A stretch of 64,000 bases of DNA. Source: Desulfobaccales bacterium. Its GTDB lineage: Bacteria; Desulfobacterota; Desulfobaccia; Desulfobaccales; 0-14-0-80-60-11. The stretch is taken from positions 577,721-641,720 of the forward strand of contig JBAUPV010000030.1 in the NCBI GenBank assembly GCA_049580385.1, written 5' to 3'. Both the position numbers and the translations under genes were made by a program. Positions 22,141 to 48,419 of this stretch are shown here, piece by piece (within the stretch, counting starts at the first letter, position 1; each line of letters starts with the position of its first letter). The notes beneath the pieces were generated by a model. The model made no database searches. It worked only from the letters and a program-made list of their open reading frames with translations, and was not told the DNA's origin.

Positions 22141-22206
22141 GTAGGATAAAGACCGACTTGGGGGCTGGTAAGAGTCCTATGGAAAAATCAGACTCATGCG
22201 GACAGC
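22141..22206 (+). promoter_or_regulatory. 66-nt conserved element, copy A
   Basis: GTAGGATAAAGACCGACTTGGGGGCTGGTAAGAGTCCTATGGAAAAATCAGACTCATGCGGACAGC. Aligns without gaps to copies B, C and D. Ends 212 nt upstream of the ATG at 22419. Confidence 0.75.
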
Positions 22207-22418
22207 TTTTCAACCTGGGCTGTGAGAGTTTAGGGGCGTGAAGAAATGAGTTTTCCGAAGTTTGCCGATCAGCAGAGCAGTTTTTAAATGTGCGGAGAAT
22301 TTGGCCTGGATGGCCGTCCGTTTCTAAGCCGAGGTTCAGTTTAACTGCTGGCGGCTAACAGCAGGAGCTATCTCCCCGAATTCGCGGCGAACAGCCCACA
22401 TCAGCAAAGGAGAAGAAA

Positions 22419-23582
22419 ATGTCGTATTACATGTATGACGGGTCCACGGAAGTGACTCCCTGGGAAAGGATGTTCGCCACCATGAATGGCGAAAAGCTTG
22501 ATAGGGTCCCGGTGCATCTCTACCCGCGCTGGACCGCTCTCGAATACCTGGGGCTTACCTTCAAGCAGTCATGGGATGATCCCGATCTGTATGCCAAGGC
22601 GCAGATCATGGCTCAGCAGCGGTTCCAGTATGACTGTGCCGTCGACTTCGATATGATGGGACCGGTTGAAGAAGCCATCGGTGCGACCCTCAAGTACCCC
22701 GAGGATGATGTCCCCCAGATTGCCGAGCCCTTCATCAAGACCAAAGAGGACATGAAGAAGGCCAAATGGAAGCTCGATCCGCGCAAAGACGGCAATATGC
22801 CCAAGGTTCTGCACTGCATCAAGAGCCTGAAGTCAGGGCTGATCAAGGCAGGCAACGGCACCCAGAAGGTGCCCATTATGACCTGGGGCAGTTGCCCTTC
22901 CCGGACCGCCGCCTGTCTGACAGGTTTCAAGGAGTGGTTCCTGATCGTCGCCCGGGACCCGGATTGGGCCCTCGAACTCATGCAAGCCGCCATGGACGGC
23001 TGGCTGCAAATGGTCATTGCCGCTCATGAAGCGGGAGCCGACTGCGTTTGGGTCAACGACCCGGTTTCCTCGGCCGACTGCATCTCCAGGAAACATTATG
23101 AAACCTTGACCCAGCCGTTTGAACGCAAGTTCATCGAGGCCATCCGGCGTGAAACCGGTATGAAGATCATCTTCCATCCTTGTGGGAACTGGCATGACCG
23201 TCTCGATCTCGTCTATCAGAACCAAGCCGACGGCTATTTCCTAGGCCCGATGAATATCGATCTTTGCACCCAAAAGGCTGTCGAGGTCAGAGACGCCGGT
23301 CTCAATCCGCACCTGAAGTTCCTTAACGGCAATTTCGGTGCGGCCACCAAGAGTTCTACGGCGGACCGGAAGCCCGTCCCTTATGCCACCACCCTCAAAT
23401 TCGGCACCCCTGAGGAACTTATCGAGGAGAGCAGGATTATCATCGAGACCGTTGAAGGCGGTGGTCTGCGCTGCATGCTCGGCCCCAACTGTTGGGAGCC
23501 GAAGGGGGCCGCTAACATCAACCGCGATGCGGTGGTCTACGCGGCGCGCCGGCACGGCAGTTACCTCAAAAAAGAAGAGTAA
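22419..23582 (+). CDS. URO-D-family methyltransferase (MtaA/MtbA/MtsA-like, Zn type)
   Basis: 387 aa. N-terminal ...ERMFATMNGEKLDRVPV... typical of the family. Zn motif H-x-C (IFHPCGNW) plus downstream Cys (LRCMLGPNCW). Confidence 0.75.
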   Translation: MSYYMYDGSTEVTPWERMFATMNGEKLDRVPVHLYPRWTALEYLGLTFKQSWDDPDLYAKAQIMAQQRFQYDCAVDFDMMGPVEEAIGATLKYPEDDVPQIAEPFIKTKEDMKKAKWKLDPRKDGNMPKVLHCIKSLKSGLIKAGNGTQKVPIMTWGSCPSRTAACLTGFKEWFLIVARDPDWALELMQAAMDGWLQMVIAAHEAGADCVWVNDPVSSADCISRKHYETLTQPFERKFIEAIRRETGMKIIFHPCGNWHDRLDLVYQNQADGYFLGPMNIDLCTQKAVEVRDAGLNPHLKFLNGNFGAATKSSTADRKPVPYATTLKFGTPEELIEESRIIIETVEGGGLRCMLGPNCWEPKGAANINRDAVVYAARRHGSYLKKEE

Positions 23583-23591
23583 ATCGGGAGG

Positions 23592-24236
23592 ATGACGGTG
23601 GAAATATTAGCGGAAATCGCCAAAGCGGTCTATGACGGAGATGAGCCGAAAACACTCGAGCTTGTCAAGAAGGCGATGGCTGAAGGCGTAGGCGCCCAGG
23701 ACATCGTGGATAAGGGGTTGGTAAAGGGGCTCCACGAATGTGGCGCCGGCTACGAGGCCGGAGAGAAGTTCATCCCCGAGATGCTGATGGCGGCTGAAGC
23801 CATGAAGGCCTCCATGGCGGTTCTCAAACCGCATCTCGTGGTCGGGGAGTCCGTCGGCGGCAAGGTCGTGTTGGCCACAGTTGAAGGCGACGTCCATGAC
23901 ATCGGCCTCGAACTGGTTGCCACCATGCTGGGCAGCGCCGGCCTGGAAGTCAATTTCATGGGGCCGGACGTGGAAACATCCCGCATCATCGCGGCGGTAA
24001 AGGAGGACAAACCTCAATTGCTGGGATTATCCGCGCTGCTTACCAACACGATGGATACTATGCCCGTGATCATCAAGAAACTTGAGCAGGAAGGCCTCAG
24101 AAGTTCGCTCAAGGTAATCATCGGGGGCGCCCCGGTTTCTCAGGATTTCGCGGACCTGATCGGGGCGGACGGCTACGCCTACGATGCCGCCGCGGCCGTT
24201 CCGGTGGCGAAAAAGCTGGTGAGCCAAGTGGCCTGA
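23592..24236 (+). CDS. Corrinoid (B12-binding) protein, MtaC/MtbC/MtsB-like
   Basis: B12-binding DxHxxG motif EGDVHDIGLELV, followed by LLGLSALLT and IIGGAP. N-terminal helical cap domain. The true start may be GTG 23598, which has better spacing from GGGAGG. Confidence 0.85.
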   Translation: MTVEILAEIAKAVYDGDEPKTLELVKKAMAEGVGAQDIVDKGLVKGLHECGAGYEAGEKFIPEMLMAAEAMKASMAVLKPHLVVGESVGGKVVLATVEGDVHDIGLELVATMLGSAGLEVNFMGPDVETSRIIAAVKEDKPQLLGLSALLTNTMDTMPVIIKKLEQEGLRSSLKVIIGGAPVSQDFADLIGADGYAYDAAAAVPVAKKLVSQVA

Positions 24237-24271
24237 TGATCCCAAGTTCCCGGTAACCCGTAAGTGATGCC

Positions 24272-24313
24272 AATCGGCTATCTCGTCTTAAACGGGATAG
24301 CCGATTTCTTTTC
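24272..24313 (+). terminator. Rho-independent terminator
   Basis: AATCGGCTATC (24272-24282) pairs perfectly with GATAGCCGATT (24296-24306), followed by TCTTTTC. Lies 36 nt after the corrinoid-protein stop. Confidence 0.7.
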
Positions 24314-24409
24314 ACAAAATCATGTTGTATTAAATAGAGCCTTCCGCCCCCTCCGGGAACTGAGCATTGGAGATGCGGTATCCGTAATATTCAATGGTCG
24401 CAAGGGGAG

Positions 24410-24685
24410 ATGGAAAGGCTTGAGAGAGTGATCTCGCCAAAGTACAACCCCGATCCCTGGAAGAAGTGGATGGACAGGCTCGATAAAATCTATGGAAATG
24501 GTTCCATCTTCGAGAAGATGTATGCCATCGCCCAGGAGGTTCCTGCCAACGCTTACGCCATCGATATAGTTCCGAAACGCTGGTGGAAGCCGAACCCGCC
24601 CTGGTGGAATAACTCCGATACGGCGCCGTGGAGGAGAGGAACCGGCTGCTTCGCGAGATCCCTCGAAAAGAAGACCCCCGGATAG
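24410..24685 (+). CDS. Hypothetical 91-aa Trp/Pro-rich protein (uncertain)
   Basis: ORF in a lower-GC gap between convergent genes. Composition is protein-like (WWKPNPPWWNN), but the SD abuts the ATG. Confidence 0.25.
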   Translation: MERLERVISPKYNPDPWKKWMDRLDKIYGNGSIFEKMYAIAQEVPANAYAIDIVPKRWWKPNPPWWNNSDTAPWRRGTGCFARSLEKKTPG

Positions 24686-24731
24686 CCACTCAGTTGGCGT
24701 CGATCCTGCCAACCCCGTCAGACTTACAGCT

Positions 24732-25607
24732 TTAAGCAGCCTGGCGCGCCCGGAACCCCTTGATCCACTTCATGCCGTGGGGGTCTCTCCCTTCTATCAG
24801 GTCGGCAGCTTGCAGGGCACTCGCTTCTTGCTTTTTTAACGGGTTGCAGATCGGGCAGGTCAAACCGGCTTCCACTGAGAGCGCCAGAAAAACTGCAGTC
24901 AGGGTTTCCCGGTCGGGCATACCAAAGGAGATGTTGGATGCGCCCATGGTAATATTGACCCCGAAGCTGTTGACGATCATGCGTACGGCCTCCAGAACCA
25001 TCTTGCCAGCTCGCCACTCGGTTCCCAGCGTTAAGACGAGAGGGTCGATCACGATGTCCTCGGCGGGGATTCCCAGTTTGCCAGCCTCTTCGATGATCTT
25101 GGCGGCATTCTGAAATCTTTCGTCAGCGGTCTTGGGGATACCGGTATCTCCGCTGCATAGCCCAATGACCGGGCAGCCATACTCTTTAATCAGAGGCAAC
25201 ACCGCCTTGAGGCGCTTGGTTTCCGCACTCACCGAATTCACCAAGGGCCTGGCCCCGTCTTTACAGTAGTAGTTGAGAGCCGCTGCCAGCGTCTCAGTTC
25301 TGGGAGAATCGATGCAGATCGGAAAGTCATCCGTTGCTGCTCTGATTTCCTTGATAATTTGAACCATCAGGACGGACTCATCGGCGCCAGGCACTCCGGC
25401 ATTCACGTCCAGGATCCCGGCCCCCGCGGCAATCTGGGCCAGGGCATCCCTGCGAACCATATCGAATCTGCCCTCGCTCAGTTCAGCCCGCAGCACCTTT
25501 CGGCCGGTGGGGTTTATCCTTTCCCCGATGATCACCACCCCCTGGTCACGGCAGATGCGCGTTTCCTTTTTCGCTGATTTAACTAAAGTAGTAAGATTGG
25601 TCGTCAT
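24732..25607 (-). CDS. Pterin-binding methyltransferase (methyl-H4folate:corrinoid, AcsE/MtrH/MetH-domain-like)
   Basis: VIIGERINPTGRK...AGAGILDVNAG...ICIDSP...LVNSVS, a TIM-barrel pterin-binding signature. Start set at the ATG at 25607 (MTTNLTTLVK). Confidence 0.8.
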   Translation of the reverse strand: MTTNLTTLVKSAKKETRICRDQGVVIIGERINPTGRKVLRAELSEGRFDMVRRDALAQIAAGAGILDVNAGVPGADESVLMVQIIKEIRAATDDFPICIDSPRTETLAAALNYYCKDGARPLVNSVSAETKRLKAVLPLIKEYGCPVIGLCSGDTGIPKTADERFQNAAKIIEEAGKLGIPAEDIVIDPLVLTLGTEWRAGKMVLEAVRMIVNSFGVNITMGASNISFGMPDRETLTAVFLALSVEAGLTCPICNPLKKQEASALQAADLIEGRDPHGMKWIKGFRARQAA

Positions 25608-25897
25608 TGGGTCGCACTCCTTCCGGTGGCAAAATTTCCATAACCCCCATGGGGCAAAATGATCTGGTTCCTCAAGGGACGAGTCATCCAGAAAGTGAAG
25701 ATCTCCGTGATGACCTTCCCAGCGCCGGTACTCGTTGCTGGGAGAGATTGGGTCACGCACGGAGATCTGCAGCAGCTGGGCCAGGAGGATGCCATCCTGG
25801 CGCAGCGGTTTAAGCCTTTAGGGGCGAGAGCCCCCTGGGAGCCTGCCGTCCCCGCTAAAGTCAGAGACGCATCCGGGCAGGCGCCAGCCAGCCTCTC

Positions 25898-26722
25898 TTA
25901 TTCAGTTACTCCCAGCTTTTTGACTTCATCCATCACGGCGGGTTCCACCACCGGGACGACTGCTTTTTCCTTCTCCATGGCGTCTTTCTCGGGAATTGCG
26001 AAGGTCCCCGGTACCACGGTGACCAAACCATGGATGTTGACTATGGGATAGCCGTCGTGGACCCAACCCCTGAATCCATCAGTGACATTAATGATTTTCC
26101 CGGAATAGCCCATGTCGATCATAATCTTATGGACGATGGCGCCTCGATTGGAACCATTTTCAGGAGTCCCGGCCTTGCACATGAGGTAGTAGGTGGCCGT
26201 GGAGTCCGGGGCGATACTCGGGAGCAGCCAGTAAGCCAGGCCGGTGTCCAGGCGGATTGCTCCGGGGACATGCCCCGCCGCGAATTCCGATTCCATACGC
26301 ACATCCAGGAGGTGAATTTTAGGATTTTTCCAGCCTTCCTGCTCAATCCAAAGTTTGTAGAAATCGTCGGCGGAAATCCCTATGCCATACTGCCACATTA
26401 TGGGACGAAATTCATTCTGGCCGTTTTCGAAAAGCTCCTTGGGGGTCAGGACTGCTCCCGTATGACGCGGAGTCAGGGTTTTGCTGATGATGTAATTCTT
26501 ACCCCGGCCCATGGCCTCGAGTTGTTCCTTAGTCCAGGGCTTCTTGGAAAACTCCAGGATCTGTTTTTCCGTCCAGTCTTTGCTGGGGCCTACGCCCTGG
26601 TCCTGGGCGCCCTGAGCTTTGGCGGCCCCCTCCTCTGCCGCCAAGGCGAGAGAACCAGTGAAGAGAATGGCCACCAAGATGGCAAATACCGATACAACCG
26701 CGCTCCTTCTAAGTTTTTCCAT
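25898..26722 (-). CDS. Exported single-domain rhodanese-like sulfurtransferase
   Basis: Signal peptide MEKLRRSAVVSVFAILVAILFTGSLALAAEE. Rhodanese block HLLDVRMESEFAAGHVPGAIRL and active-site loop YYLMCKAGTPENGSNRG. RBS AAAGGAG before the ATG at 26722. Confidence 0.75.
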   Translation of the reverse strand: MEKLRRSAVVSVFAILVAILFTGSLALAAEEGAAKAQGAQDQGVGPSKDWTEKQILEFSKKPWTKEQLEAMGRGKNYIISKTLTPRHTGAVLTPKELFENGQNEFRPIMWQYGIGISADDFYKLWIEQEGWKNPKIHLLDVRMESEFAAGHVPGAIRLDTGLAYWLLPSIAPDSTATYYLMCKAGTPENGSNRGAIVHKIMIDMGYSGKIINVTDGFRGWVHDGYPIVNIHGLVTVVPGTFAIPEKDAMEKEKAVVPVVEPAVMDEVKKLGVTE

Positions 26723-26966
26723 CTTACCAACGCTCCTTTCTTGGGGGTGAGGATTCACTGCTCTCCTAATGGACAACCCGGCCGCAAAATACGATTTCTG
26801 CCCTTTCACCTCCATACTGCGGGTTTAAAGTATGGCCCTTTGGGCCCAAAACCGCCCAGGTGGGCCCAAGCGTAGTCGGCCGGAAAAGAGCCGCAGGGGT
26901 GATCCCTAATAATGGTGCGCAGTTTGGATGGCCCCAATTCTTAAATGCCACGGACTGGCCGCGAAC

Positions 26967-27032
26967 GCTGTCCGGGAGAGTCTGATTTTTTTATAGGATA
27001 ATCCCTCTCCTATAAGTCCGCATTTGTCCTAC
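26967..27032 (-). promoter_or_regulatory. 66-nt conserved element, copy C
   Basis: Minus-strand read: GTAGGACAAATGCGGACTTATAGGAGAGGGATTATCCTATAAAAAAATCAGACTCTCCCGGACAGC. Ends 244 nt upstream of the rhodanese ATG at 26722. Confidence 0.75.
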
Positions 27033-27204
27033 ATTTTGTCGCTTTAGATTAACTGGAGAAAAAAATGGTGTTAATCATTCCGGTTAGCCACCGGGAGGGT
27101 AGGAGGGAAAGCCCTTGGAGGTCCAAAGGGCTGCGAGGGAATCAAAAATCTCCGGGAAGTGGTGCGGGGGCAAAGGAGGCTATCGATGGGTCAGGAAGAC
27201 CCTC

Positions 27205-27831
27205 CTAAATTTCCCCGGCCCCAGGGCAGGCAGATTTGGGAGCCAGGTTAAATCCGATGAGGATCGTACCTAATTCAGGTTTCCCAGTCTCCCAACCAAA
27301 GTGCTCCTTGAGATAAAGGTCGGCCGATCCCAGGGGCGAGGCCGAGAGAATGTCCTCAACGCCGGGAATCCCTTCTAATTCAGGAAACCTCAAGCCCCGA
27401 AAAACGAAAACCGGCCGTTGACCGGCATTTTGCTTTATTCTGTCATAGTAAACGGCAAAATTCTTGCCGATGACCTTAACCTTCTCGCTTTTTTTCAATG
27501 ATTCCAGGCGCTCCGGGTCACAGACCTCCTCGCCGATGACCACACCACCCATTACCCAGGAGAGGCAGGGCTCCGAGGCGTGCCTGAAGTCATTATTGTT
27601 CAAAACCACGCAGACCATCCGTCTAGCGAGAACAGTTAAAACCCCTTCGTTGCAATACTTGCCTAATCCCCCCAGGCCTCGCTCCTGAAGCTCTTCCTCA
27701 AATCGCCTGAGGATTCCCCGATCGTTCTCATCAATCCAGCCAACAGCCAGTATCCCTCTGGTGTTGCGCAAGGCTTTTTCTACGCTGGGCTTACATTTTC
27801 CCGGGTCATAGCAGCAATTGCCACTAGGCAT
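27205..27831 (-). CDS. Hypothetical Cys-rich protein
   Basis: 208-223 aa, lower GC than its neighbours. N-terminal CCYDPGKC cluster plus scattered Cys. No SD at either candidate start (TTG 27876 or ATG 27831). Family not recognised. Confidence 0.5.
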   Translation of the reverse strand: MPSGNCCYDPGKCKPSVEKALRNTRGILAVGWIDENDRGILRRFEEELQERGLGGLGKYCNEGVLTVLARRMVCVVLNNNDFRHASEPCLSWVMGGVVIGEEVCDPERLESLKKSEKVKVIGKNFAVYYDRIKQNAGQRPVFVFRGLRFPELEGIPGVEDILSASPLGSADLYLKEHFGWETGKPELGTILIGFNLAPKSACPGAGEI

Positions 27832-27942
27832 GTCAAAATCCGATTCGATAAGGATAAGTATCAGGCCGAGCGCCAAGATTTTTATATCGAGGCATCATTT
27901 ACAGAGATTATATAATCTAAATTGATCTAAAATGGGAGTGAA

Positions 27943-30207
27943 GTGATTCCGGCCCAGGGGCGCTCCCATGTTGGCAAGGGCTCCGCGGGCCTGAGTGGCA
28001 ATATGGGAACCACCGGAAAAAGCAAACCCGATCCTCCTCTCCTGAGGCCCCTCGCTTTTCTGATCATGGCCATGCTTCTGGTCGTTCTTCTCTTGCTGGC
28101 GCTGGTCCGGCAGGACCGTCAGCCTTGGAAATCCTATCAAGAGGCCTACCGCCTAAACCAGGCCCAGAAACTGGCAGAATCGTTGCGAGGTAAGATTCCG
28201 GAAGTGGAGATCCGGGACAGATGCAAAACCATAACCCAGGCGCCTTTCCGGGTGAAAGAACTGAGGCCGATTATTACCGGCAAGGAGGAAAGGTGCCTCA
28301 CCTGCCACGATGGCCTGGAGGAGGTTAGCCCCTCCCATCCGGTGGAGGAATTCGGTTGCGTAATCTGCCACGGGGGTCAGGGAATCGGGGTGACGGTGGC
28401 TGTCGCCCACCAGGGCCTCATCGGCGGCCGCAATCCCTCGGACCTGTCAGTCGCCAGCCAGACCTGCGGCGGCGCAGGGGGGCAATGTCATGCGGGCCGA
28501 AGATTGGTAGCCCAAAACGAGGTAACCCGGGTGCGTTGCGGCGTAATGGCGACCATGAGTGGAGTCATTGCCAGCCTGCGTTACTCGTGGGCGGCTCAAA
28601 CCTCGGATGAGGCCCGCTATGCCTCTGTAGGAGTTAAAAATCCTGCTCCCCAGCCGGGCACTTTAGCTGAATTATTGACGCTTCCCCGGATGGGGCCGAT
28701 ATCTGGAAATGGGCCTGCCGGTTCCGAGGGACTGGTCCCAGCCTCTTCGGGAGAGCTTGCCGCCGATCACTGGCGCAAGCTCTGTGCCTCATGCCACCTC
28801 TGGAACAGAAAAGACCGCGGCCCCTCGGCCCATTCCTCAGGCTGCGCCGCCTGCCACGCTCTCTATAACCCCAAAGCGACCTACGAGGGCGCTGATCCGA
28901 CTCTACCCCGGGGGCAACCCGGTTACTCGAGACTGCACCGCCTGACCACCGCCATACCGGTGAGTCAATGTCTGCGGTGCCATAATCGCTCTGGACGTCT
29001 GGGAATTTCCTACACCGGCCTGGAAGAGGCGGACGGTTATGGCACCCCTTACCGGCAAGGGCGGCCCAACCTGGAGGCCCTCTCGGGAGGTAGAGATGTA
29101 CGCCATTTAGTCCCTGACATCCACTTTGAACGAGGAATGGCCTGTATAGACTGCCATTCCGGCAAGGAAGTCATGGGTGACGGCAACATTTACAGCCACA
29201 TGCGCCAACAGGTCGAAATTCGTTGTAACGACTGCCATGGCAGCTTCGGCCGGCCTCCCCGCACCAAGGTCTTGGGCGCAGAGGATGAAGAGGCCCTCTG
29301 GAGGGCCAGGGCCCTGGGGCTGGGCGATCTCCGGGGCCGGGAGGTGGGAATTACCCGGCGGGGGACGGCTATTTTGAATCTGCGCAAAGAGGATGGCAAG
29401 ATGATCCTCACCAGCAAACTGGACCGGAAAGATCACCTGTGCCCGACCATTACCACTGACCGGGATCATGCCATTCCCGGCCATGGCGCGGATCGCCTGG
29501 AATGCTCGGCCTGCCACTCCCGCTGGGCGCCCCAGTGTTACGGCTGCCACGACTACCGGCATCGCGGTGACCAGGGACTGGATAATCAGACCCAAGTCAA
29601 AACCGAGGGACTGTGGCAGGAAACCAGGGACTATTATCGATTTGACAATCCCACCCTGGGAATCGATTCACGCCAGCGGGTATCCCTGGTGGTGCCCGGC
29701 TGCCAGGTGGTCTATACCGAGTTGGCGCCAGATGGAACGGTGATGGCCGGTAACGACAAAAAAGTGTTCACGGGCGCGGGTATAGGCCACGGTATCGTCT
29801 CAACCCCCATCTCGCCTCATACGACGCGCCCCGAAGTTCGCTCCTGCCAGGAGTGTCATGCCGATCCGAAGACCCTGGGTATTGGGCAGGGCTTGTTCCA
29901 GCCCGGTAAGCGCTGGGCAGCGAACACCTTCGTTTCTTTGGTGCAACCGGAGATCAACCCGCTGGGTTTTGCCTGGGAGAGCCTTGCCGATCCCCAGGGG
30001 CGCCCTTTGGCAGCCACGACGCATGACGGCGCTCGCCCTTTTAATGGGGAAGAATTGAGACGCATTCTCGAGGTGGCCCCCTGCCTTCCCTGTCATGGCC
30101 GTTATGATGATCCGATCTGGTCGAATCCGGCGGCGGCCTTCGTTAGGGCCAAATTGCCATTGCATCAGCGGCAGGTGGGCCGCTGGTTGGACGGAACTGG
30201 AAAATGA
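27943..30207 (+). CDS. Membrane-anchored multiheme cytochrome c (11 CxxCH + 1 CX6CH)
   Basis: TM anchor LAFLIMAMLLVVLLLLALV. CxxCH motifs: CLTCH, CVICH, CASCH, CAACH, CLRCH, CIDCH, CNDCH, CSACH, CYGCH, CQECH, CLPCH, plus CGGAGGQCH. Starts at GTG 27943 after GGGAG (alternative ATG 28003). Confidence 0.85.
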   Translation: MIPAQGRSHVGKGSAGLSGNMGTTGKSKPDPPLLRPLAFLIMAMLLVVLLLLALVRQDRQPWKSYQEAYRLNQAQKLAESLRGKIPEVEIRDRCKTITQAPFRVKELRPIITGKEERCLTCHDGLEEVSPSHPVEEFGCVICHGGQGIGVTVAVAHQGLIGGRNPSDLSVASQTCGGAGGQCHAGRRLVAQNEVTRVRCGVMATMSGVIASLRYSWAAQTSDEARYASVGVKNPAPQPGTLAELLTLPRMGPISGNGPAGSEGLVPASSGELAADHWRKLCASCHLWNRKDRGPSAHSSGCAACHALYNPKATYEGADPTLPRGQPGYSRLHRLTTAIPVSQCLRCHNRSGRLGISYTGLEEADGYGTPYRQGRPNLEALSGGRDVRHLVPDIHFERGMACIDCHSGKEVMGDGNIYSHMRQQVEIRCNDCHGSFGRPPRTKVLGAEDEEALWRARALGLGDLRGREVGITRRGTAILNLRKEDGKMILTSKLDRKDHLCPTITTDRDHAIPGHGADRLECSACHSRWAPQCYGCHDYRHRGDQGLDNQTQVKTEGLWQETRDYYRFDNPTLGIDSRQRVSLVVPGCQVVYTELAPDGTVMAGNDKKVFTGAGIGHGIVSTPISPHTTRPEVRSCQECHADPKTLGIGQGLFQPGKRWAANTFVSLVQPEINPLGFAWESLADPQGRPLAATTHDGARPFNGEELRRILEVAPCLPCHGRYDDPIWSNPAAAFVRAKLPLHQRQVGRWLDGTGK

Positions 30208-32147
30208 GGATTCCGGTAAACCTGAGACTGGCGATGGCTCTCTGCATCTGGGTCGGAGCTGTATGGGCTTTGCCCTGCCTCGGTTCTCCGGCCCCGAGTC
30301 CGGGACCGGAGGTGGGTCATTCTCCAGCGGGCCTTGCGTGTCCCGGTGGCCCTAAAGGCAGATCGGATTGCCCCTGGGCGCCTGGGGGGCTCATAAGCAA
30401 CCCCGCTGATTTAACTCCTGCTGCCCGTACCTGCGGCCGCTGCCATCAAGAACAGGAGCACTGGGTAAAAAGATCCCTCATGGCCACCGCCAGCGGGATC
30501 ATCAACCAGACCCGGTTTCTCTGGGGAGCCCAGCCGGATGCAGCGCCGCGCTATGGGGCTGCGGCAATTGCGGGGCTGCGGCTCCTGCCCACCCAGGAGG
30601 CCTCGGGGGCCCTGGTGGACGACCTGCTCCGCCGCCGCTGCCTGCGCTGCCATCTCGGGGCCTCCGATCCGAGGAGCCCTGAAGGGGCCGCAGGTGATGC
30701 CGGGGCGAAGGGCGGGTCGGCTTGTGCGGCGTGCCATATCGTGAACGAGAGCGAGAGAATTGGGCCGGACCAGAAAGTGCCCGGGAAGGGAGGACAACCA
30801 GGACCTTATCGCCTGACCACATCTGTGCCCACTTCCCAATGTCTCCACTGCCACCGCGAGAATCACGCGGGCGCCGATTACGCAGGACTTTTCGAGCGGG
30901 ATCAATCGGTATCCTCTAACTTTGAGGCCACGGACCCCGGTTTAGTTCCTCAGCTCTATGGCAATTCGTATCACTTCCTGCTGCCTGATATTCATTACGA
31001 ACGCGGGATGCATTGCATCGATTGCCACCCGATGGAAGAAATCATGGGCGAGGGAACCATCCACTCTCAATCTCAGGAGCAGGTAGGCTTACGGTGCACG
31101 GACTGTCACGGCAGCCCGGGGAAACCGCCCCACAGCCGCCGGGTGACCATTGCCGACCAGCGGGCCCTGCGGGCGGCCCGCGCCAATCCCCACTACGATC
31201 TCGAAATCGGCCAAAAGGTTATTGTCACCTCAAAAGGCTACCTGCTGACGAACACCCGGGAAGAGAAAGGAGGCAGGTTCCTGCTGGTGTCCAAGGTTGA
31301 TGGCAAAATACATCAAATTCCGACCCTGGCCCGGGAAGGTCCGGGAAAAGGGCCGCTTGACCATCGCCTCCCCGGCCACCTGAATAAAATGGAGTGCGCC
31401 GCCTGCCATGCCGCCTGGACTTTCCAGGATCTCGGGTTGCACTTGCTGCGGCTGGACGCCGCCGATTACCAGCCCTGGATCTGGCTCACCCAGCAGGATG
31501 ATCCGCAGGCTACACGGATTCTCAGGGAAGAGCTGGTGAAGCCGCCGGGACAGAGAAATTTGCCGCACTCTCGAGACTATCTTACTGGCAAAGCCTCCCC
31601 TGGCATCTGGTTGGCAGGCTACTCCAGGCGCAGCTGGGAGGGGATCATTTTGGGCGTCGATTACCGGGGGCTGGTAAGCGCCTTCCGGCCTCAATATCAG
31701 TATTGGGTCAGCCGGGTGGATGCCGGAGGGCGGGTGCTCCTCGATTCTGTCACCCCGACCACGGCGGCTGGGCGGGCGGCCCTTGCCTGGAACCCTTATA
31801 CCCCCCACACGACCAGGCGTCAGACCCGCGCTTGCTGGGACTGCCACGGAAATACACGCGCCTTGGGCTTGGGTGAGATGTTGATCCGGGCCAAAGATGG
31901 GCAGCCGCTGGGGCTGACCAGGCCAAACGCCGACGGCCTGGGCATTGGGTTCGAGCTGGACCAGGTGATTGATGGGCAGGGGCGGAGCCTGCAGACCACC
32001 ACCAGGCCTGGAGCCGCATTTCTCGATCGAGAGCGGCTTAGGCGGCTGGACGCCGGTAATCCCCTTTATGTGAAATACCTTTTGGAGTATTATGCGAACA
32101 AGGAAGCCTATGGAGATCCCGCGGGTTTCACAGACCCCAAAAAGTGA
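30204..32147 (+). CDS. Periplasmic multiheme cytochrome c (8 CxxCH), paralog of the preceding gene
   Basis: Signal peptide MRIPVNLRLAMALCIWVGAVWALPC. CxxCH motifs: CGRCH, CLRCH, CAACH, CLHCH, CIDCH, CTDCH, CAACH, CWDCH. ATGA start/stop overlap with the upstream gene. Shared blocks include DIH(F/Y)ERGM.CIDCH. Confidence 0.85.
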   Translation: MRIPVNLRLAMALCIWVGAVWALPCLGSPAPSPGPEVGHSPAGLACPGGPKGRSDCPWAPGGLISNPADLTPAARTCGRCHQEQEHWVKRSLMATASGIINQTRFLWGAQPDAAPRYGAAAIAGLRLLPTQEASGALVDDLLRRRCLRCHLGASDPRSPEGAAGDAGAKGGSACAACHIVNESERIGPDQKVPGKGGQPGPYRLTTSVPTSQCLHCHRENHAGADYAGLFERDQSVSSNFEATDPGLVPQLYGNSYHFLLPDIHYERGMHCIDCHPMEEIMGEGTIHSQSQEQVGLRCTDCHGSPGKPPHSRRVTIADQRALRAARANPHYDLEIGQKVIVTSKGYLLTNTREEKGGRFLLVSKVDGKIHQIPTLAREGPGKGPLDHRLPGHLNKMECAACHAAWTFQDLGLHLLRLDAADYQPWIWLTQQDDPQATRILREELVKPPGQRNLPHSRDYLTGKASPGIWLAGYSRRSWEGIILGVDYRGLVSAFRPQYQYWVSRVDAGGRVLLDSVTPTTAAGRAALAWNPYTPHTTRRQTRACWDCHGNTRALGLGEMLIRAKDGQPLGLTRPNADGLGIGFELDQVIDGQGRSLQTTTRPGAAFLDRERLRRLDAGNPLYVKYLLEYYANKEAYGDPAGFTDPKK

Positions 32148-32514
32148 GTAGGGCCAGGGTGCAGCCCATGGCCAGCAGAATCGCCAGATGGATGCTGAAG
32201 CGGTACCTATGCGCCGCATCGGGCTGGGCGGCGCCGGGAACCCAGGGGAGGACGGCGAGCAGGCCCAATGAGGCGAGAGGGATAATCAGTCCCGCCCAGA
32301 GGGCTGGCAGGTAGCGCAGCAGTACTTGAAGCCAGATGATGAGCCAGGGAGCGGTTATTTCGCCCACGGCTCGATTCTCCGGAGTCACCGTGGAATAGCC
32401 TGGAGGCCAGAGCAAGGCCAGCCCTAGCAGAATCAAGGCCAGGAGCATTGCCGCCAGCAATTCTCTGACAATCAGCTCTTTGCGTCTGGCGAATCTGGAA
32501 CGGCTTTCCGGCAT
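32128..32514 (-). CDS. Cytochrome b C-terminal part (b6f subunit-IV/PetD-like), 3 TM
   Basis: 128 aa with 3 hydrophobic helices. GEITAPWLIIWLQVLLRYLPALWAGLIIPLASLGLL aligns by eye to the PetD ...LPEWYFFP.FQILR..PNKL.G.L... region. Overlaps the 3' end of the convergent cytochrome gene by 20 nt. Confidence 0.65.
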   Translation of the reverse strand: MPESRSRFARRKELIVRELLAAMLLALILLGLALLWPPGYSTVTPENRAVGEITAPWLIIWLQVLLRYLPALWAGLIIPLASLGLLAVLPWVPGAAQPDAAHRYRFSIHLAILLAMGCTLALLTFWGL

Positions 32515-32586
32515 TATACCAACTTGCTGGGCAGGAGTTTTCAGTTGGGCGGTGCCAAGACCTTAGCAAACTTGCTAGCCGATTAT

Positions 32587-33066
32587 ATGTTACCGATTAG
32601 AAAAAACAAGCATCCCGAGTCTCGCCCGGGACGTCGCAGATTTGTGCTTTCCCTGGGATGGTCCCTGCTGGGGCTGGCCTTTGCCGGGGTGACCTGGATG
32701 ACCGGGGGGTTCCTCGGTGGGGCTCGGGCCCGCTCAGATCCGGAACCGGCGAATTTCGGTCCCCCCGGCGCTTACCGCATCGGCTCAGTGGTCAAATTGG
32801 GCCGGATAGTTCTCTTGCGAGATGCAACCGGTTTCTGGGCTGTATTTGCCGTTTGTCCCCATTTAGGCTGCCAGCCTGCCTTTGATGAGAACCGGCGGAT
32901 ATTTGTCTGCCCGTGCCATGGAAGTCAGTTCGACCCGGAGGGGCGTTTCCTGGCGGGGCCCGCTAAAAGGGGCATGAGTTTGGCCGCGTTGCGTTTGGAC
33001 AGCCTCGGGGCGCTGGTAGCCTATCCGCAAGAAAAGGTCAAGGCTGGTGACAGGTTTAACCCGTGA
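32587..33066 (+). CDS. Rieske [2Fe-2S] protein with Tat signal
   Basis: PGRRRFVLSLGWSLLGLAFAG twin-arginine leader. Cluster boxes CPHLGC and CPCHGS. Confidence 0.85.
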   Translation: MLPIRKNKHPESRPGRRRFVLSLGWSLLGLAFAGVTWMTGGFLGGARARSDPEPANFGPPGAYRIGSVVKLGRIVLLRDATGFWAVFAVCPHLGCQPAFDENRRIFVCPCHGSQFDPEGRFLAGPAKRGMSLAALRLDSLGALVAYPQEKVKAGDRFNP

Positions 33067-33689
33067 GATTCGATAAGTTCTTAGAGCACATCCATCCGTC
33101 TAAAATTTCGGAAGATCGCATCCGCATAAGCTCCACGTTTTGTCTGGGAGGCGCGGCGTTTTTTCTTTTCATTACCTTAGGCGTTACCGGCCTGCTCCTG
33201 GCCATTTACTATCTGCCCAGCGCCGCAGGGGCCAAGGCAGGGATCCACGATCTAACCTATGTGGTTCCCTTCGGCTGGCTCATCCGCGCCCTTCATTTTT
33301 GGGCCGGCCAACTCATGCTCGTGGCTATTCTTTTGCATACCGGGCGCGTGGTGGCGGCGCGTGCCTACCTACCCCCGCGGCAGGGAAATTGGCTGATCGG
33401 AGTGGCGCTCTTGCTCATTACCGGTGGCCTCGATTTTTCCGGCTACGTGCTGCGTTGGGACTCGCAAACCTTTTGGGCAGCTCAAGTAATGTCTCAGCTT
33501 CTGGAGCGGGTGCCGCTAATCGGCCCTGAACTGCAACAAATCCTGCTGGGCGGACCTCAAATCACCGAGTCCGGACTCTTGCGTTTCTATGCCTTTCATT
33601 GCCTCTTGGGGCCGGTGCTGTGCTTATCATTGATCATGTATCATTTTTGGCGGGTCCGGCGCGATGGGAACCTGGGAAAATCGCTCTGA
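33063..33689 (+). CDS. Cytochrome b, N-terminal (b6-like) part, 4 TM, two His pairs
   Basis: 208 aa. RALHFWAGQLMLVAILLH and FHCLLGPVLCLSLIMYH heme-ligand pairs. GTG start overlaps the Rieske stop. Confidence 0.8.
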   Translation: MRFDKFLEHIHPSKISEDRIRISSTFCLGGAAFFLFITLGVTGLLLAIYYLPSAAGAKAGIHDLTYVVPFGWLIRALHFWAGQLMLVAILLHTGRVVAARAYLPPRQGNWLIGVALLLITGGLDFSGYVLRWDSQTFWAAQVMSQLLERVPLIGPELQQILLGGPQITESGLLRFYAFHCLLGPVLCLSLIMYHFWRVRRDGNLGKSL

Positions 33690-33737
33690 TAGCCTGATAG
33701 ATTGCCAGCCAGATAGCGTCTGGCCGCGGAGGTCAAG

Positions 33738-33767
33738 TTGACATTCCGCGTAAATTTGCGTTACCAT
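33738..33767 (+). promoter_or_regulatory. Candidate sigma-70 promoter
   Basis: -35 TTGACA (33738-33743), 18-nt spacer, -10 TACCAT (33762-33767), upstream of the low-GC gene at 33901. Confidence 0.4.
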
Positions 33768-33900
33768 CCCGGCGAAGGGAAAATTGGGCTTCGAGAAGAG
33801 GACCGCTTGAGAGAATTTACTCGGGCCAAAAGGCTCCAAAATCTCGGTGGGCAGAAATAACAATGGATGTGGAATAATCCCGGTTAGGAGGGTTAACATC

Positions 33901-34380
33901 ATGGCCAAAAGGATCATAAGTCTCTTGGTGTTGCTAATTCTTTTTATGGCTCTACCCATTGCCGCGGTAGAAGTATCCTCTGAATTCAAACCTGGTTCAG
34001 AGCCGGATGGTTTCAGGGGTATAAAGTGGGGAACCGATATATCAACTTTGAAAGGGATGAAATTAATAAAAGATGATGGACCCGAGAAATATTACCAGAA
34101 AAAAGACGACAATATGACCATAGGTGCTTCTCAACTTAGCGAGATCACCTATGGTTTTAAGGATGGGAAATTTGATAGTGTAATAATACATACAAAGGGA
34201 TATGTAAATTATGGTCATTTAAAAGATGCTTGTATCGAGAAATATGGAAAAGGGATAAAAACGGGGGTTGGTGAATCATTTGCCTGGGTTGGGAATAAAA
34301 CCTGGGTGAAGCTCAGGTATGAGAAGGACAAGGATGAAGGAGTCCTGATATCTTCGGTAATCCCCCAGGGGGGTTGTTAA
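33901..34380 (+). CDS. Hypothetical secreted protein (low-GC gene)
   Basis: Signal peptide MAKRIISLLVLLILFMALPIAAVE. RBS TAGGAGGG. Markedly AT-richer than its neighbours. No motif recognised. Confidence 0.65.
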   Translation: MAKRIISLLVLLILFMALPIAAVEVSSEFKPGSEPDGFRGIKWGTDISTLKGMKLIKDDGPEKYYQKKDDNMTIGASQLSEITYGFKDGKFDSVIIHTKGYVNYGHLKDACIEKYGKGIKTGVGESFAWVGNKTWVKLRYEKDKDEGVLISSVIPQGGC

Positions 34381-34446
34381 AGGAGCCCGGTAGGTGAAGA
34401 TCGTTTAGGCCTCGGTTGGGTTCGAGCGGAGATCTGAATAGGAACT

Positions 34447-34512
34447 GTAGGACAAAAACCGACCAGCCACCGTAAGTAAATCCTATAAATAAATAGGACA
34501 CTTCCCGATTGC
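34447..34512 (+). promoter_or_regulatory. 66-nt conserved element, copy D (most divergent)
   Basis: GTAGGACAAAAACCGACCAGCCACCGTAAGTAAATCCTATAAATAAATAGGACACTTCCCGATTGC. Keeps GTAGGAC, ACCGAC, TCCTAT and TAGGAC at the same columns. Ends 94 nt upstream of the ATG at 34607. Confidence 0.6.
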
Positions 34513-34606
34513 GGTCCATCCGGGCTCAGGCATCTAGTAATAACAAAACACCAGAGACCGCCGGTCAGGGCGACGGTTAAGGTTTATCTGAGAAAAGGAG
34601 CGCATA

Positions 34607-34882
34607 ATGAGGCTGAAAAAGATTATTTTCATCGGATTGTGCCTGGTTTTGAGTGCTGGGCTGATCCACCTGAATGTGGGTGTCTGCCAACAGCCCAAGC
34701 CGGATGAAACGGGGACCAAACTGCCTGCGGCTACGCCCGCAGGCAAGACGCCGGCTCCCCAGCCCCCCTGTAACACGCCTGCCAAGGCGCCCGGGGAGGT
34801 CAAACCGGAAAGTAAGCCGGCAGCTCCGGCAATACCTCCGGCCAAGGAACCCGCCAAGCCTGAGGAAAATGAGGGATGTTAG
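34607..34882 (+). CDS. Small secreted Pro/Ala/Lys-rich protein
   Basis: 91 aa. Signal peptide MRLKKIIFIGLCLVLSAGL, then low-complexity PKPDETGTKLPAATPAGKTPAPQPP..., C-terminal Cys. RBS AAAAGGAG. Confidence 0.6.
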   Translation: MRLKKIIFIGLCLVLSAGLIHLNVGVCQQPKPDETGTKLPAATPAGKTPAPQPPCNTPAKAPGEVKPESKPAAPAIPPAKEPAKPEENEGC

Positions 34883-35120
34883 CCCCGCGCCTGGGCGCCC
34901 TCATCTGCAATCCTGAGCGTTGCCACTTCCTGGACGCCCGGCCCTAGGCCCAAGAGGAACCCGGCCGCGGGAAGGAGCGTCCAGGCCGCTATTAGGGAAG
35001 GCTCTCCTGGGGCATTGTCCTGAGCTCAAGGCCCGGGATTAATCCTCCCTATATTGGAAAACCTGGCTCCCTCTATCGCCGCCCACCCCCGTACCTCATA
35101 CGGCCGCCCACCCCCGCAAA

Positions 35121-35186
35121 GTAGGACAGATACCGACCTTGTGATGGCAAAAGGTCCTATAAGATAATCAGACTCATGCGGACAAT
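35121..35186 (+). promoter_or_regulatory. 66-nt conserved element, copy B
   Basis: GTAGGACAGATACCGACCTTGTGATGGCAAAAGGTCCTATAAGATAATCAGACTCATGCGGACAAT. Ends 155 nt upstream of the ATG at 35342. Confidence 0.75.
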
Positions 35187-35341
35187 ATTTTCCCGGCGTT
35201 TATGCTTATATTGCAGGTGGAAAGGACCGGCTTCTTCGATGGCTTCTTAATCAAAGGAGGGCTGTGGCCGGAAGGGCGGGAGCGGTTTTGCTGTCATGGG
35301 AGTTCGCAGCTAAAAACTTATCCGAAAGGGAGGTGCGAGGC

Positions 35342-36451: not shown

Positions 36452-36556
36452 CGGCTTTTAAGTTTGGGCGCCATACTCCTCTGGCCTGGATGACGGAGGG
36501 TTTTCAGGCCAGAGGAGGCCTTAGGCAAACCAGGTCATTTTAGAGACACACTGAGA

Positions 36557-38373: not shown

Positions 38374-38427
38374 CCCGGTGACGGGATTGCCACTGGCGGC
38401 TACGCCAGTTAAGAGGGGAAGTTTTAT

Positions 38428-39243: not shown

Positions 39244-39264
39244 TGCCGGTTACCATAGTAGAGG

Positions 39265-40167: not shown

Positions 40168-40295
40168 TGAGGGCTAATTCATCCCAAAATATCTTCGGGT
40201 ACCGGAAATGGATTCCGGGCGTGGGCAATAGGCTGATGTTGGCGTCTTGGGCGGGATGCCGGCAGGCGACCCCCGGCATATAAATTGACTTCATT

Positions 40296-46171: not shown

Positions 46172-46174
46172 CCT

Positions 46175-48400: not shown

Positions 48401-48419
48401 CGTTAGCGGAGAAGCCGAG

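What the first reader, a model, noticed from the sequence alone, without database searches (positions are those of the whole stretch)
22141..35186. Four gap-free copies of a 66-nt element, each pointing at a downstream transcription unit
Copies:
- A, 22141-22206 (+): GTAGGATAAAGACCGACTTGGGGGCTGGTAAGAGTCCTATGGAAAAATCAGACTCATGCGGACAGC
- B, 35121-35186 (+): GTAGGACAGATACCGACCTTGTGATGGCAAAAGGTCCTATAAGATAATCAGACTCATGCGGACAAT
- C, 27032-26967 (-): GTAGGACAAATGCGGACTTATAGGAGAGGGATTATCCTATAAAAAAATCAGACTCTCCCGGACAGC
- D, 34447-34512 (+): GTAGGACAAAAACCGACCAGCCACCGTAAGTAAATCCTATAAATAAATAGGACACTTCCCGATTGC

The four align column for column. Invariant or near-invariant blocks are GTAGGA (columns 1-6), (A/G)C(C/G)GAC (12-17), TCCTAT (35-40), an A-rich run (41-47), T(C/A)(A/G)GAC (48-53) and (G/C)C(G/C)GA(C/T) (58-63).

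So an NNGGAC/NCGAC-type hexamer recurs in direct orientation at columns 2, 12, 48 and 58, with 10-nt phasing inside each pair. It occurs once inverted, as GTCCTA at columns 34-39.

Every copy faces its downstream gene and ends 94-244 nt before the start codon. The downstream genes are the URO-D methyltransferase/corrinoid pair, the exported rhodanese (followed by the pterin methyltransferase), a small secreted Pro-rich protein, and the ABC importer/YeeE/TusA/DsrE string.

The interior between TAGGAC and GTCCTA shows no compensatory pairing. A multi-site DNA operator/UAS therefore looks more likely than an RNA structure.
Basis: seen in the sequence. Interest (0 to 1): 0.8.

Follow-up and report, generated by a model that had tools for sequence, protein, structure and literature searches.

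The report
Shared promoter-operator of a two-component regulon
The four 66-nt copies are real and are most likely the shared control region (protein-binding sites plus promoter) through which one uncharacterised sensor kinase/response-regulator pair, encoded 13 kb downstream, switches on four operons for corrinoid methyl transfer and sulfur handling.

Summary
The four gap-free copies sit exactly where stated, and a profile search finds no others in the window. The element is not a genome-wide repeat: a complete 3.4-Mb relative has only four pattern matches.

In about 12 related Desulfobaccales and Syntrophobacter-like genomes, the element sits upstream of the same four orthologous units and always points at them. 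Columns that I left free in the search patterns are nearly invariant (C13, G51, C59, G61 and A62 in 51/51 copies). The GTAGGA and TCCTA arms are also invariant in copies found without specifying them.

There is no support for an RNA:
- The alignment fold finds only one 6-bp stem.
- There are no compensatory changes among 90 unique copies.
- Folding z-scores are about 0.
- Rfam gives no hit.

The key new evidence concerns the window's dCache-type histidine kinase (46175-48400) and NarL/GerE-type response regulator (48420-49061). In all six orthologous kinase/regulator loci that I fetched by protein, an element lay within 10 kb. It is often within 70 nt of the regulator's stop codon or divergent from the kinase gene, even where the target genes differ.

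Best reading: a multi-half-site operator/promoter module about 92 bp long, bound by this regulator. The transcription start (about column 55 or about column 98) is unresolved. This is a new member of a known kind, of moderate interest.

The parts
22141..22232 (+). Copy A. Columns 1-66 are 22141-22206, plus the conserved downstream block to about column 92. Half-sites: TAGGAT 22142-22147, ACCGAC 22152-22157, inverted GTCCTA 22174-22179, TCAGAC 22188-22193, GCGGAC 22198-22203. The -10-like AAAAAT is at 22183-22188 and TG..A...T at 22223-22231. It faces the URO-D methyltransferase gene.
26941..27032 (-). Copy C. Columns 1-66 are 27032-26967, with the downstream block to about 26941. It faces the rhodanese / pterin-methyltransferase unit.
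34447..34541 (+). Copy D. Columns 1-66 are 34447-34512. The second site pair is TAGGAC-N4-CCCGAT. The downstream block AGGCATCTAGTAAT is at 34528-34541. It faces the small secreted Pro-rich ORF.
35121..35212 (+). Copy B. Columns 1-66 are 35121-35186. The downstream block TGCTTATATT is at 35203-35212. It faces the SsuA/NMT1-type binding protein, ABC transporter, YeeE and TusA string.
46175..48400 (+). Sensor histidine kinase (HAMP-PAS_3-HisKA_3-HATPase). Its orthologues carry an N-terminal dCache_1 domain. Proposed sensor of the regulon.
48420..49061 (+). NarL/FixJ-family response regulator (REC + GerE helix-turn-helix). Proposed binder of the element.
   Evidence: co-location
44282..46171 (+). 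RACo-type reductive activator of corrinoid proteins, immediately upstream of the kinase and regulator genes. It ties the two-component system to the corrinoid methyltransferase genes.
22419..24236 (+). Target unit A: MtaA/CmuA-like URO-D family methyltransferase (22419-23582) and corrinoid protein (23592-24236).
24732..26815 (-). Target unit C: rhodanese-domain protein (25898-26815) and methyl-THF:corrinoid methyltransferase-like pterin-binding protein (24732-25760).
34607..34882 (+). Target unit D: 91-aa Pro-rich ORF with no family match. It is conserved downstream of D-type copies in relatives.
35264..41924 (+). Target unit B: SsuA/NMT1-like binding protein, two permeases, two ATPases, YeeE-type sulfur transporter (40418-41608) and TusA (41685-41924).

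Best explanation
The element is double-stranded DNA. It is the conserved upstream control region, about 92 bp long, of a small regulon governed by the dCache histidine kinase (46175-48400) and the NarL/GerE-type response regulator (48420-49061).

Inferred mechanism: the phosphorylated regulator binds a fixed array of TAGGAC-like half-sites. These are two direct-repeat pairs with 10-bp phasing (columns 2-17 and 48-63) and one inverted half-site (columns 34-39). Binding recruits RNA polymerase to a promoter that has no recognisable -35 hexamer. This co-induces the corrinoid methyltransferase genes, the rhodanese/pterin methyltransferase genes, a small secreted protein and the ABC-YeeE-TusA sulfur import string.

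The start site is unresolved, and two readings remain:
- (i) The -10 is the almost invariant NANNAT at columns 43-48, so the start is near column 55. The first site pair is then centred near -45 and the second pair straddles the start, where it might repress at high regulator levels.
- (ii) The -10 is the TGnNATnnT-like block at columns 83-91, so the start is near column 98. The second site pair is then centred at -42.5 (classical class II geometry), the A-tract lies at -57 to -51, and the first pair is at -88.5.

Shown: the conservation, copy number, orientation, absence of RNA signals, and co-location with the kinase/regulator pair. Inferred: binding, activation rather than repression, the start site and the signal.
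For: (1) The element is real and under selection.
- A genome-collection scan specified only GTAGGA, GAC, TCCTAT and AAT. It returned 51 matches, almost all in Desulfobaccales, 'delta proteobacterium' or Syntrophobacter MAGs.
- In these, the unspecified columns C13, G51, C59, G61 and A62 are 51/51, and A8, A10 and A44 are 49-50/51.
- A second scan anchored only on the 3' part returned 37 true copies. All have GTAGGA at columns 1-6 and TCCTA at columns 35-39.

(2) It behaves as a regulon marker.
- Copies sit upstream of the same four orthologous units in about 12 genomes, always co-oriented.
- A complete 3.4-Mb chromosome has only four pattern matches.

(3) It is linked to the kinase/regulator pair.
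- Orthologues of the pair (47-91% identity) lie beside pattern-found copies in L006, L032, L026, L089 and L080.
- In the forward test I fetched loci through regulator orthologues. All six with the same dCache kinase carry the element within 10 kb. These are Desulfoferrobacter suflitae L101/L102 (three copies), L104/L106, L105, L107 and L099 (a short variant). The locus with a different kinase type (L103) has none.
- In L101, L105, L107, L026, L089 and L080 a copy starts between 0 and about 165 nt after the regulator's stop codon. In L101, L080 and L032 a copy is divergent from the kinase gene.
- With about 4 copies per 3.4 Mb, the chance of a copy within +/-10 kb of a random locus is roughly 2% (my estimate).

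(4) The regulator's recognition-helix region (LS[IV]KT[IV]STYRxRI) is nearly identical in all these orthologues, matching the invariance of the half-sites.

(5) Promoter features.
- There is no canonical sigma-70 promoter and no -24/-12 promoter in the four intergenic regions, as expected for activator dependence.
- A -10 weight matrix peaks sharply at columns 43-48, with a mean of 4.1 bits and 93% of copies at 3 bits or more.
- A second conserved block lies at columns 83-91.

(6) Relic copies that have lost their downstream gene (L036, L022) are decaying.
Against: - No binding or expression data exist. The link to the regulator is by co-location only.
- In the window itself no copy lies next to the RACo-kinase-regulator operon. 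The nearest copy is 9 kb upstream of the operon.
- The half-site geometry is unusual for NarL-family regulators, which typically use inverted heptamers. Here there are direct pairs 46 bp apart and one inverted site.
- The two start-site readings conflict, and each is contradicted by one variant. In L026 the start codon is at about column 97, which argues against reading (ii) there. L099 lacks 24 nt between the first site pair and the A-tract, which argues against reading (i) there.
- In C- and D-type copies there is no purine at columns 54-59 for a start near column 55.
- Many copies are orthologous, so the counts overstate the number of independent events.
Confidence: 0.72

Rival explanations
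1. It is a DNA operator/promoter, but it is bound by a different protein than the NarL-type regulator at 48420-49061. That could be another transcription factor, or an alternative sigma factor that recognises the GGAC/GTCC blocks.
For: Binding was not tested. In the window, the regulator gene is 9-26 kb from the copies. The direct-repeat geometry is not typical for this regulator family. The GAC-N16-GTCC spacing loosely resembles ECF-type -35/-10 spacing (my reading).
Against: The kinase/regulator pair is the only gene set that travels with the element when the target genes change. No other regulator gene recurs in those loci.
Confidence: 0.13
2. It is a structured cis-regulatory RNA, such as a riboswitch or leader, in the 5' UTR. 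The GUAGGA:UCCUAU stem would form the core.
For: The two arms are complementary. Each copy is on the sense strand upstream of a gene, with 94-244 nt to the start codon. D-type copies could form an alternative UCCUAU/AUAGGA hairpin.
Against: - RNAalifold finds only the 6-bp stem around a 28-nt loop (-3.2 kcal/mol), with nothing in the interior or flanks.
- Among 90 unique copies, arm 1 is invariant in 89. All arm-2 changes are one-sided, with zero compensatory pairs. The would-be pair 7:34 is a standard pair in only 49/90.
- MFE z-scores of the four copies are 0.0, +1.3, -0.1 and -0.5, and the four predicted folds differ.
- Rfam gives no hit at the gathering threshold, and only one chance-level match (E = 0.16, 17.9 bits against a gathering score of 70) to an unrelated viral family in the permissive scans.
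- The associated regulator has a DNA-binding GerE domain, not an RNA-binding one.
Confidence: 0.05
3. It is an upstream activating sequence for one of the sigma-54 enhancer-binding proteins encoded in the window.
For: A PAS/sigma-54 activator gene lies at 11461-12990. The element ends 94-244 nt from the start codons, a distance typical for such sites.
Against: No TGGCAC-N5-TTGCW match with up to 2 mismatches lies between any copy and its gene. The conserved TGGCAT-like block at columns 83-88 has no GC at the -12 distance. The sigma-54 activator gene does not travel with the element in other lineages.
Confidence: 0.03
4. It is a REP/MITE-like dispersed repeat, or the remnant of a mobile element, with no regulatory role.
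For: It is a repeated, partly palindromic intergenic sequence. A duplicated A+E block occurs between convergent genes in L036 and L022.
Against: There are only four copies in the 64-kb window and four pattern matches in a complete 3.4-Mb chromosome. Copies keep orthologous positions and a fixed orientation toward genes across species whose flanks have diverged. The misplaced copies are decaying.
Confidence: 0.02

Closest known systems
BvgA-dependent promoters of Bordetella (fha, bipA). Recalled from memory, not tested here.
   Same: The regulator belongs to the NarL/FixJ family. The heptad core contains TCCTA. Several regulator units occupy about 70 bp, from about -100 down to the -35 region. 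At bipA, extra sites downstream of the start repress. This resembles both start-site readings proposed here.
   Different: BvgA uses inverted heptad pairs spaced about 22 bp apart. Here the pairs are direct repeats with 10-bp phasing plus a single inverted half-site. The kinase is a dCache/HisKA_3 type, not BvgS. The taxa and target genes are unrelated.
NarL/NarP heptamer arrays (TACYYMT, 7-2-7 sites)
   Same: NarL is the closest solved structure to the regulator by sequence (E = 2.6e-29). The kinase has the HisKA_3 family dimerisation domain shared with NarX/NarQ. There are multiple short half-sites in mixed orientation upstream of respiratory and energy genes.
   Different: The regulator scores 130.7 bits against the NarL equivalog cut-off of 250. 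The half-site sequence and spacing differ. The sensor domain is dCache, not the NarX P-box domain.
GacA/UvrY box (TGTAAG-N6-CTTACA) upstream of Csr/Rsm small RNA genes
   Same: The best NCBIfam hit of the regulator is the UvrY/SirA/GacA family. A palindromic element with a TGTAGG-like arm lies upstream of long leaders.
   Different: The score is 192.9 bits, below the cut-off of 280. The kinase lacks the BarA/GacS receiver and Hpt domains. No GacA box occurs in the elements. The targets here are protein-coding operons.
DosR/DevR box (GGGACT-N-AGTCCC type palindrome; motif recalled from memory)
   Same: DevR is among the closest solved homologues. The half-site core is GGAC/GTCC.
   Different: The DosR box is a compact 20-bp palindrome. 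Here the inverted arms are 33 bp apart centre to centre, and most half-sites are direct repeats.

Membership tests
Operator/promoter array of a NarL/FixJ-family response regulator | A cognate REC+GerE regulator and its kinase are encoded with or near the regulated genes. | tested here: met
   The regulator is at 48420-49061 and the kinase at 46175-48400. Orthologues lie beside copies in L006, L026, L032, L080, L089, L099, L101, L104, L105 and L107.
Operator/promoter array of a NarL/FixJ-family response regulator | Short (6-7 bp) half-sites repeated at helical-turn spacing, with sequence (not pairing) conserved. | tested here: met
   Half-sites lie at columns 2-7, 12-17, 34-39 (inverted), 48-53 and 58-63. 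They are nearly invariant across 90 unique copies, while the spacers vary freely.
Operator/promoter array of a NarL/FixJ-family response regulator | Located upstream of, and oriented with, the regulated promoters, which lack a consensus -35. | tested here: met
   All four window copies and their orthologues face a gene. No canonical sigma-70 promoter was found apart from one 9/12 match inside copy B.
Operator/promoter array of a NarL/FixJ-family response regulator | Physical, phosphorylation-dependent binding of the regulator to the sites. | not testable with these tools
   This needs EMSA, footprinting or DAP-seq.
GacS/GacA (BarA/UvrY) system | The regulator reaches the UvrY/SirA/GacA equivalog score. 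| tested here: not met
   192.9 bits against a cut-off of 280.
GacS/GacA (BarA/UvrY) system | An unorthodox kinase with receiver and Hpt domains, and a GacA box TGTAAG-N6-CTTACA. | tested here: not met
   The kinase is HAMP-PAS-HisKA_3-HATPase. No GacA box occurs with up to 3 mismatches near any copy.
Riboswitch / structured cis-regulatory RNA | Conserved helices supported by compensatory changes. | tested here: not met
   There are zero double-sided changes in the only candidate helix, and 7:34 is a standard pair in 49/90. The alifold energy is -3.2 kcal/mol.
Riboswitch / structured cis-regulatory RNA | Folding more stable than shuffled sequence, or a match to a described RNA family. | tested here: not met
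   z-scores are 0.0, +1.3, -0.1 and -0.5. Rfam gives no match at the gathering threshold. The permissive scans gave only one chance-level match (RF00192, E = 0.16, 17.9 bits against a gathering score of 70).
REP / MITE dispersed repeat | High copy number with no orientation or position bias relative to genes. | tested here: not met
   There are 4 copies in the window, 4 pattern matches in a complete 3.4-Mb chromosome and 3-6 in other MAGs. All functional copies face a gene.
Sigma-54 upstream activating sequence | A -24/-12 promoter (TGGCAC-N5-TTGCW) downstream of the site. | tested here: not met
   No match with up to 2 mismatches lies between any copy and its start codon.

The most novel reading that the evidence does not exclude
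The roughly 92-bp block may be a fixed-geometry nucleoprotein switch. On this reading, one NarL-family regulator occupies five half-sites on both sides of a start near column 55: the upstream pair would activate and the pair straddling the start would repress at high regulator levels. That would give band-pass co-expression of a previously unrecognised pathway in uncultured peat and sediment Desulfobaccales. The pathway would couple corrinoid-dependent demethylation of an imported organosulfur compound to sulfur trafficking. The same regulator-plus-box cassette has been rewired to respiratory genes (nuo, Psr/Nrf-like, Hdr/Dsr-like) in other lineages.
Probability: 0.2. Interest if true: 0.6.

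Novelty: new member of a known kind. Interest (0 to 1): 0.45.

Why it matters
If correct, the motif gives a sequence handle for predicting the whole regulon of an uncharacterised and widespread dCache kinase / NarL-type regulator pair. This pair occurs in Desulfobaccales, Syntrophobacterales and beyond.

It ties several gene sets into one co-regulated unit in mostly uncultured sulfate-reducer relatives. These are a corrinoid methyltransferase set (URO-D type, corrinoid protein, pterin methyltransferase, RACo), rhodanese, an SsuA-like ABC importer and YeeE/TusA.

It also points to a culturable organism, Desulfoferrobacter suflitae, where three copies flank the kinase/regulator pair. There the signal, the start site and the binding could be tested directly.

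The kind of object, a response-regulator operator/promoter, is well known. The surprise is limited to its unusually long, gap-free, five-site architecture.

Tried and rejected
- **RNA motif.** I tested Rfam at the gathering threshold on the whole window and at a permissive E-value on the three regions that hold the four copies. The only return was one chance-level match (RF00192, E = 0.16). I also ran RNAalifold on both strands with and without flanks, single-sequence folds with shuffles and explicit pair counts. None supports a structure.
- **Sigma-54 promoter.** I read the TGGCAT-like block at columns 83-88 as a possible -24 element. The -12 GC is never at the right distance.
- **GacA box.** Absent.
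- **IHF site.** The A-tract plus AATCAGAC-N-TG resembles WATCAR-N4-TTR. However, G51 replaces the conserved A, and D-type copies (ATAGGAC) do not fit. I rejected this as a general explanation.
- **MerR-type promoter.** The spacing of 19 bp between CCGACT and TATAAA fits, but the spacer is not conserved.
- **Small leader ORF.** The ATG in CTCATGCGG is absent in C- and D-type copies.
- **Canonical sigma-70 scan.** Nothing was found except one 9/12 match inside copy B.
- **Fixing the start site.** A -10/-35 weight-matrix profile over 90 copies strongly favours columns 43-48 as the -10. It cannot exclude the block at columns 83-91.
- **Literature search.** Searches for the motif and for thiosulfate-type NarL-family sensors found nothing describing this element.
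- **Outlier hits.** The pattern hits in Zixibacteria, Acidobacteriota and Bacillota MAGs (L008, L010, L037) have unrelated neighbours. I treat them as chance matches.

Full report
**Observation.** They align without gaps. A degenerate pattern made from the conserved blocks gives four matches, against none in 100 dinucleotide-preserving shuffles. A profile HMM built later from about 50 related copies finds only these four in the 64 kb (E = 2e-12 to 6e-17, nothing else at E < 10). Each copy is intergenic and points at the next gene.

**Surroundings.**
- Copy A precedes an MtaA/CmuA-like URO-D-family methyltransferase and a corrinoid protein.
- Copy C precedes a rhodanese-domain protein and a methyl-THF:corrinoid-type pterin methyltransferase.
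- Copy D precedes a 91-aa Pro-rich ORF.
- Copy B precedes an SsuA/NMT1-like binding protein, two permease/ATPase pairs, YeeE and TusA.
- Further along the same strand lie a RACo-type corrinoid reductive activase (44282-46171), a HAMP-PAS-HisKA_3 histidine kinase (46175-48400) and a REC+GerE response regulator (48420-49061).
- The window matches a Desulfobaccales-like MAG contig (GCA_052326905.1).

**Is it a dispersed repeat?** No. I scanned 185,579 species-representative genomes with a pattern that fixed only GTAGGA, GAC, TCCTAT and AAT. This returned 51 matches in 45 stretches, almost all in Desulfobaccales, 'delta proteobacterium' or Syntrophobacter MAGs. There were 3-6 per genome, clustered on one or two contigs. 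One complete 3.4-Mb chromosome has four matches. Three hits in other phyla have unrelated neighbours and fit the roughly 17 chance matches expected for an 18-base pattern.

The unspecified columns are strikingly conserved: C13, G51, C59, G61 and A62 in 51/51, and A8, A10 and A44 in 49-50/51. The copies fall into the same four types as in the window. Each type lies upstream of the orthologue of the same unit, in the same orientation, in about a dozen genomes.

**RNA or DNA?** A second scan, of metagenome contigs, anchored only on the 3' part of the element and left both 'arms' free. All 37 true copies carry GTAGGA at columns 1-6 and TCCTA at columns 35-39. I then examined 90 unique copies.
- Arm 1 is invariant in 89.
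- Every change in arm 2 is one-sided. Some are wobble-compatible and some are disruptive. There is not a single compensatory double change.
- The would-be seventh pair (7:34) is a standard pair in only 49/90.
- RNAalifold predicts nothing beyond this 6-bp stem around a 28-nt loop (-3.2 kcal/mol), on either strand, with or without flanks.
- The four window copies fold no better than shuffles (z = 0.0, +1.3, -0.1 and -0.5), and into four different structures.
- Rfam gives nothing at the gathering threshold. The permissive scans gave only one chance-level match to an unrelated viral family (RF00192, E = 0.16).

Invariant sequence blocks separated by freely varying spacers of fixed length are the signature of base-specific protein recognition on DNA. 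They are not the signature of an RNA helix.

**Which protein?** The decisive lead came from neighbours. Several pattern-found copies lie in lineages that lack the methyltransferase genes. These still sit beside orthologues of the window's kinase and regulator:
- L032, divergent from the kinase gene.
- L026, 67 nt after the regulator's stop codon.
- L089/L073.
- L080, with three copies: one divergent from the kinase, one just after the regulator and one before a PsrB/NrfD-like operon.
- L006.

I then ran the test in the other direction. I searched for homologues of the regulator, fetched contigs for seven of them (69-77% identity) and scanned those contigs with the profile.
- Every locus whose kinase has the same dCache_1-HAMP-PAS_3-HisKA_3 architecture carries the element.
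- Desulfoferrobacter suflitae has three copies: one divergent from the kinase, one 59 nt after the regulator's stop and one before a receiver-only gene.
- L104/L106 have a copy before nuoA. L107 has one 9 nt after the stop. L105 has one overlapping the stop.
- L099 has a shortened variant before YeeE.
- The one locus with a different kinase type (L103) has none.

With about four copies per 3.4 Mb, a copy within 10 kb of a random locus is expected about 2% of the time (my estimate). The recognition-helix region of the regulator is almost identical in all these orthologues. This fits the invariance of the half-sites.

The regulator is a NarL-family protein, closest to NarL, VraR, DesR and DevR among solved structures. 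It does not reach any named NCBIfam equivalog; its best hit, UvrY/GacA, scores 193 bits against a cut-off of 280.

**Anatomy.** The conserved core has the following parts:
- A direct-repeat pair, TAGGAC-N4-NCCGAC (columns 2-17).
- A 16-nt variable, purine-rich spacer.
- An inverted half-site, (G/A)TCCTA (columns 34-39).
- An A-tract ending in AAT (columns 41-48).
- A second direct pair, T(C/A)(A/G)GAC-N4-NC(G/C)GA(C/T) (columns 48-63).
- After 19 variable positions, a block with T83 G84 (74-79%), A87 (80%), T88 (62%) and T91 (70%).

Conservation between the four paralogous types ends there.

**Where does transcription start?** Two readings survive.
- **Reading (i).** A -10 weight matrix scores columns 43-48 far above any other position, with a mean of 4.1 bits and 93% of copies at 3 bits or more. 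All eight copies found without constraining those columns keep NANNAT there. A- and D-type copies add a TG at the extended -10 position. This puts the start near column 55, the first site pair near -45 and the second pair across the start.
- **Reading (ii).** The TGnNATnnT-like block at columns 83-91 puts the start near column 98. The second pair is then centred at -42.5, which is class II geometry as recalled for LuxR-type activators. The A-tract lies at -57 to -51 and the first pair at -88.5. This would explain why conservation stops at about column 92.

Each reading is contradicted by one variant. In L026 the next gene's start codon is at about column 97, which argues against (ii). L099 lacks 24 nt between the first pair and the A-tract but has a good TATACT at columns 85-90, which argues against (i). 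I cannot decide between them without 5'-end data.

No canonical sigma-70 promoter and no sigma-54 promoter are present in the four intergenic regions. This is consistent with dependence on an activator.

**Relic copies.** In L013, L085, L036 and L022, a fifth 'E-type' copy lies back-to-back with an A-type copy and has no gene downstream. Its leader resembles the C-type leader. In L012/L048, A and C are arranged back-to-back as a divergent pair. E is therefore best read as the C promoter left behind after a rearrangement. It is visibly decaying in L036 and L022. This suggests the element is maintained only where it drives a gene.

**Verdict.** The most likely mechanism is control of four operons by the dCache kinase / NarL-type regulator pair, through a fixed array of half-sites in a roughly 92-bp promoter region (confidence about 0.7). 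Binding, the sign of regulation, the start site and the signal are all inferred. It is a new member of a known kind of system, with an unusually long gap-free architecture. Interest is moderate.

Noticed in passing
window 13162-13177 (+): This is the best sigma-54-type promoter match in the window (TGGCAGACTTCTTGCT, 1 mismatch). It lies about 170 nt from the divergently oriented PAS/sigma-54 activator gene (11461-12990, -). It is upstream of the cluster with an 80-aa ORF, Usp, TauE, a PhsA-like molybdoenzyme, a Fer4 protein and the 1137-aa NuoF/GltD-like fusion. This is probably a separate regulon from the 66-nt element.
   Followed up: partly
L013 6627-6691 (+); L085 2119 (+); L036 4978-4914 (-); L022 ~7305-7368 (+): These are 'E-type' extra copies lying back-to-back with an A-type copy and pointing at no gene. 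The leader is homologous to the C-type leader, and the sequence is decaying in L036 and L022. They look like fossil C-type promoters left after a rearrangement of a divergent A|C pair, an arrangement still seen in L012/L048.
   Followed up: partly
L099 4342-4385 (+): This is a shortened variant of the element upstream of YeeE in a 6.2-Mb genome: TAGGAC-TTGA-CCGGAC, followed directly by AGAAAAAT-AGGAG-N5-CCGACAG. It lacks the 16-17-nt spacer and the inverted TCCTAT. A TATACT sits at the position of the column 85-90 block.
   Followed up: partly
It keeps the same register even in Desulfoferrobacter suflitae. It is a candidate extended -10, but its role is unresolved.
   Followed up: partly
L022 and L036 (e.g. 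L036 6469-7173 +): An ORF with a CsrA-like N-terminus and a long C-terminal extension lies about 1.3 kb beyond the misplaced A/E element pair. The regulator's best family-level hit is UvrY/GacA, whose classical targets are CsrA-titrating small RNAs. No link was established.
   Followed up: no
L004 (ENA contig_33608) 1834-3685: This strain-level variant of the window locus has an identical URO-D methyltransferase. However, its corrinoid protein is truncated (122 aa), and a DctP-type TRAP binding protein is inserted before the pterin methyltransferase gene.
   Followed up: no
TusA (41685-41924) is confirmed.
   Followed up: partly
window 44282-49061 (+): The corrinoid reductive activase (RACo) is immediately followed by the kinase (4-nt gap) and the regulator (19-nt gap). 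This suggests one operon. It may be read through from the copy-B-driven string, which would give positive autoregulation.
   Followed up: no
L026 1338-1403 (+), contig labelled Bacteroidota MAG: This copy has only the first 48 columns conserved. It lies 67 nt after a regulator orthologue (61% identity), and the next gene (a receiver-only protein) starts at about column 97. Either it is a minimal functional form, or the contig is mis-binned or horizontally acquired.
   Followed up: partly
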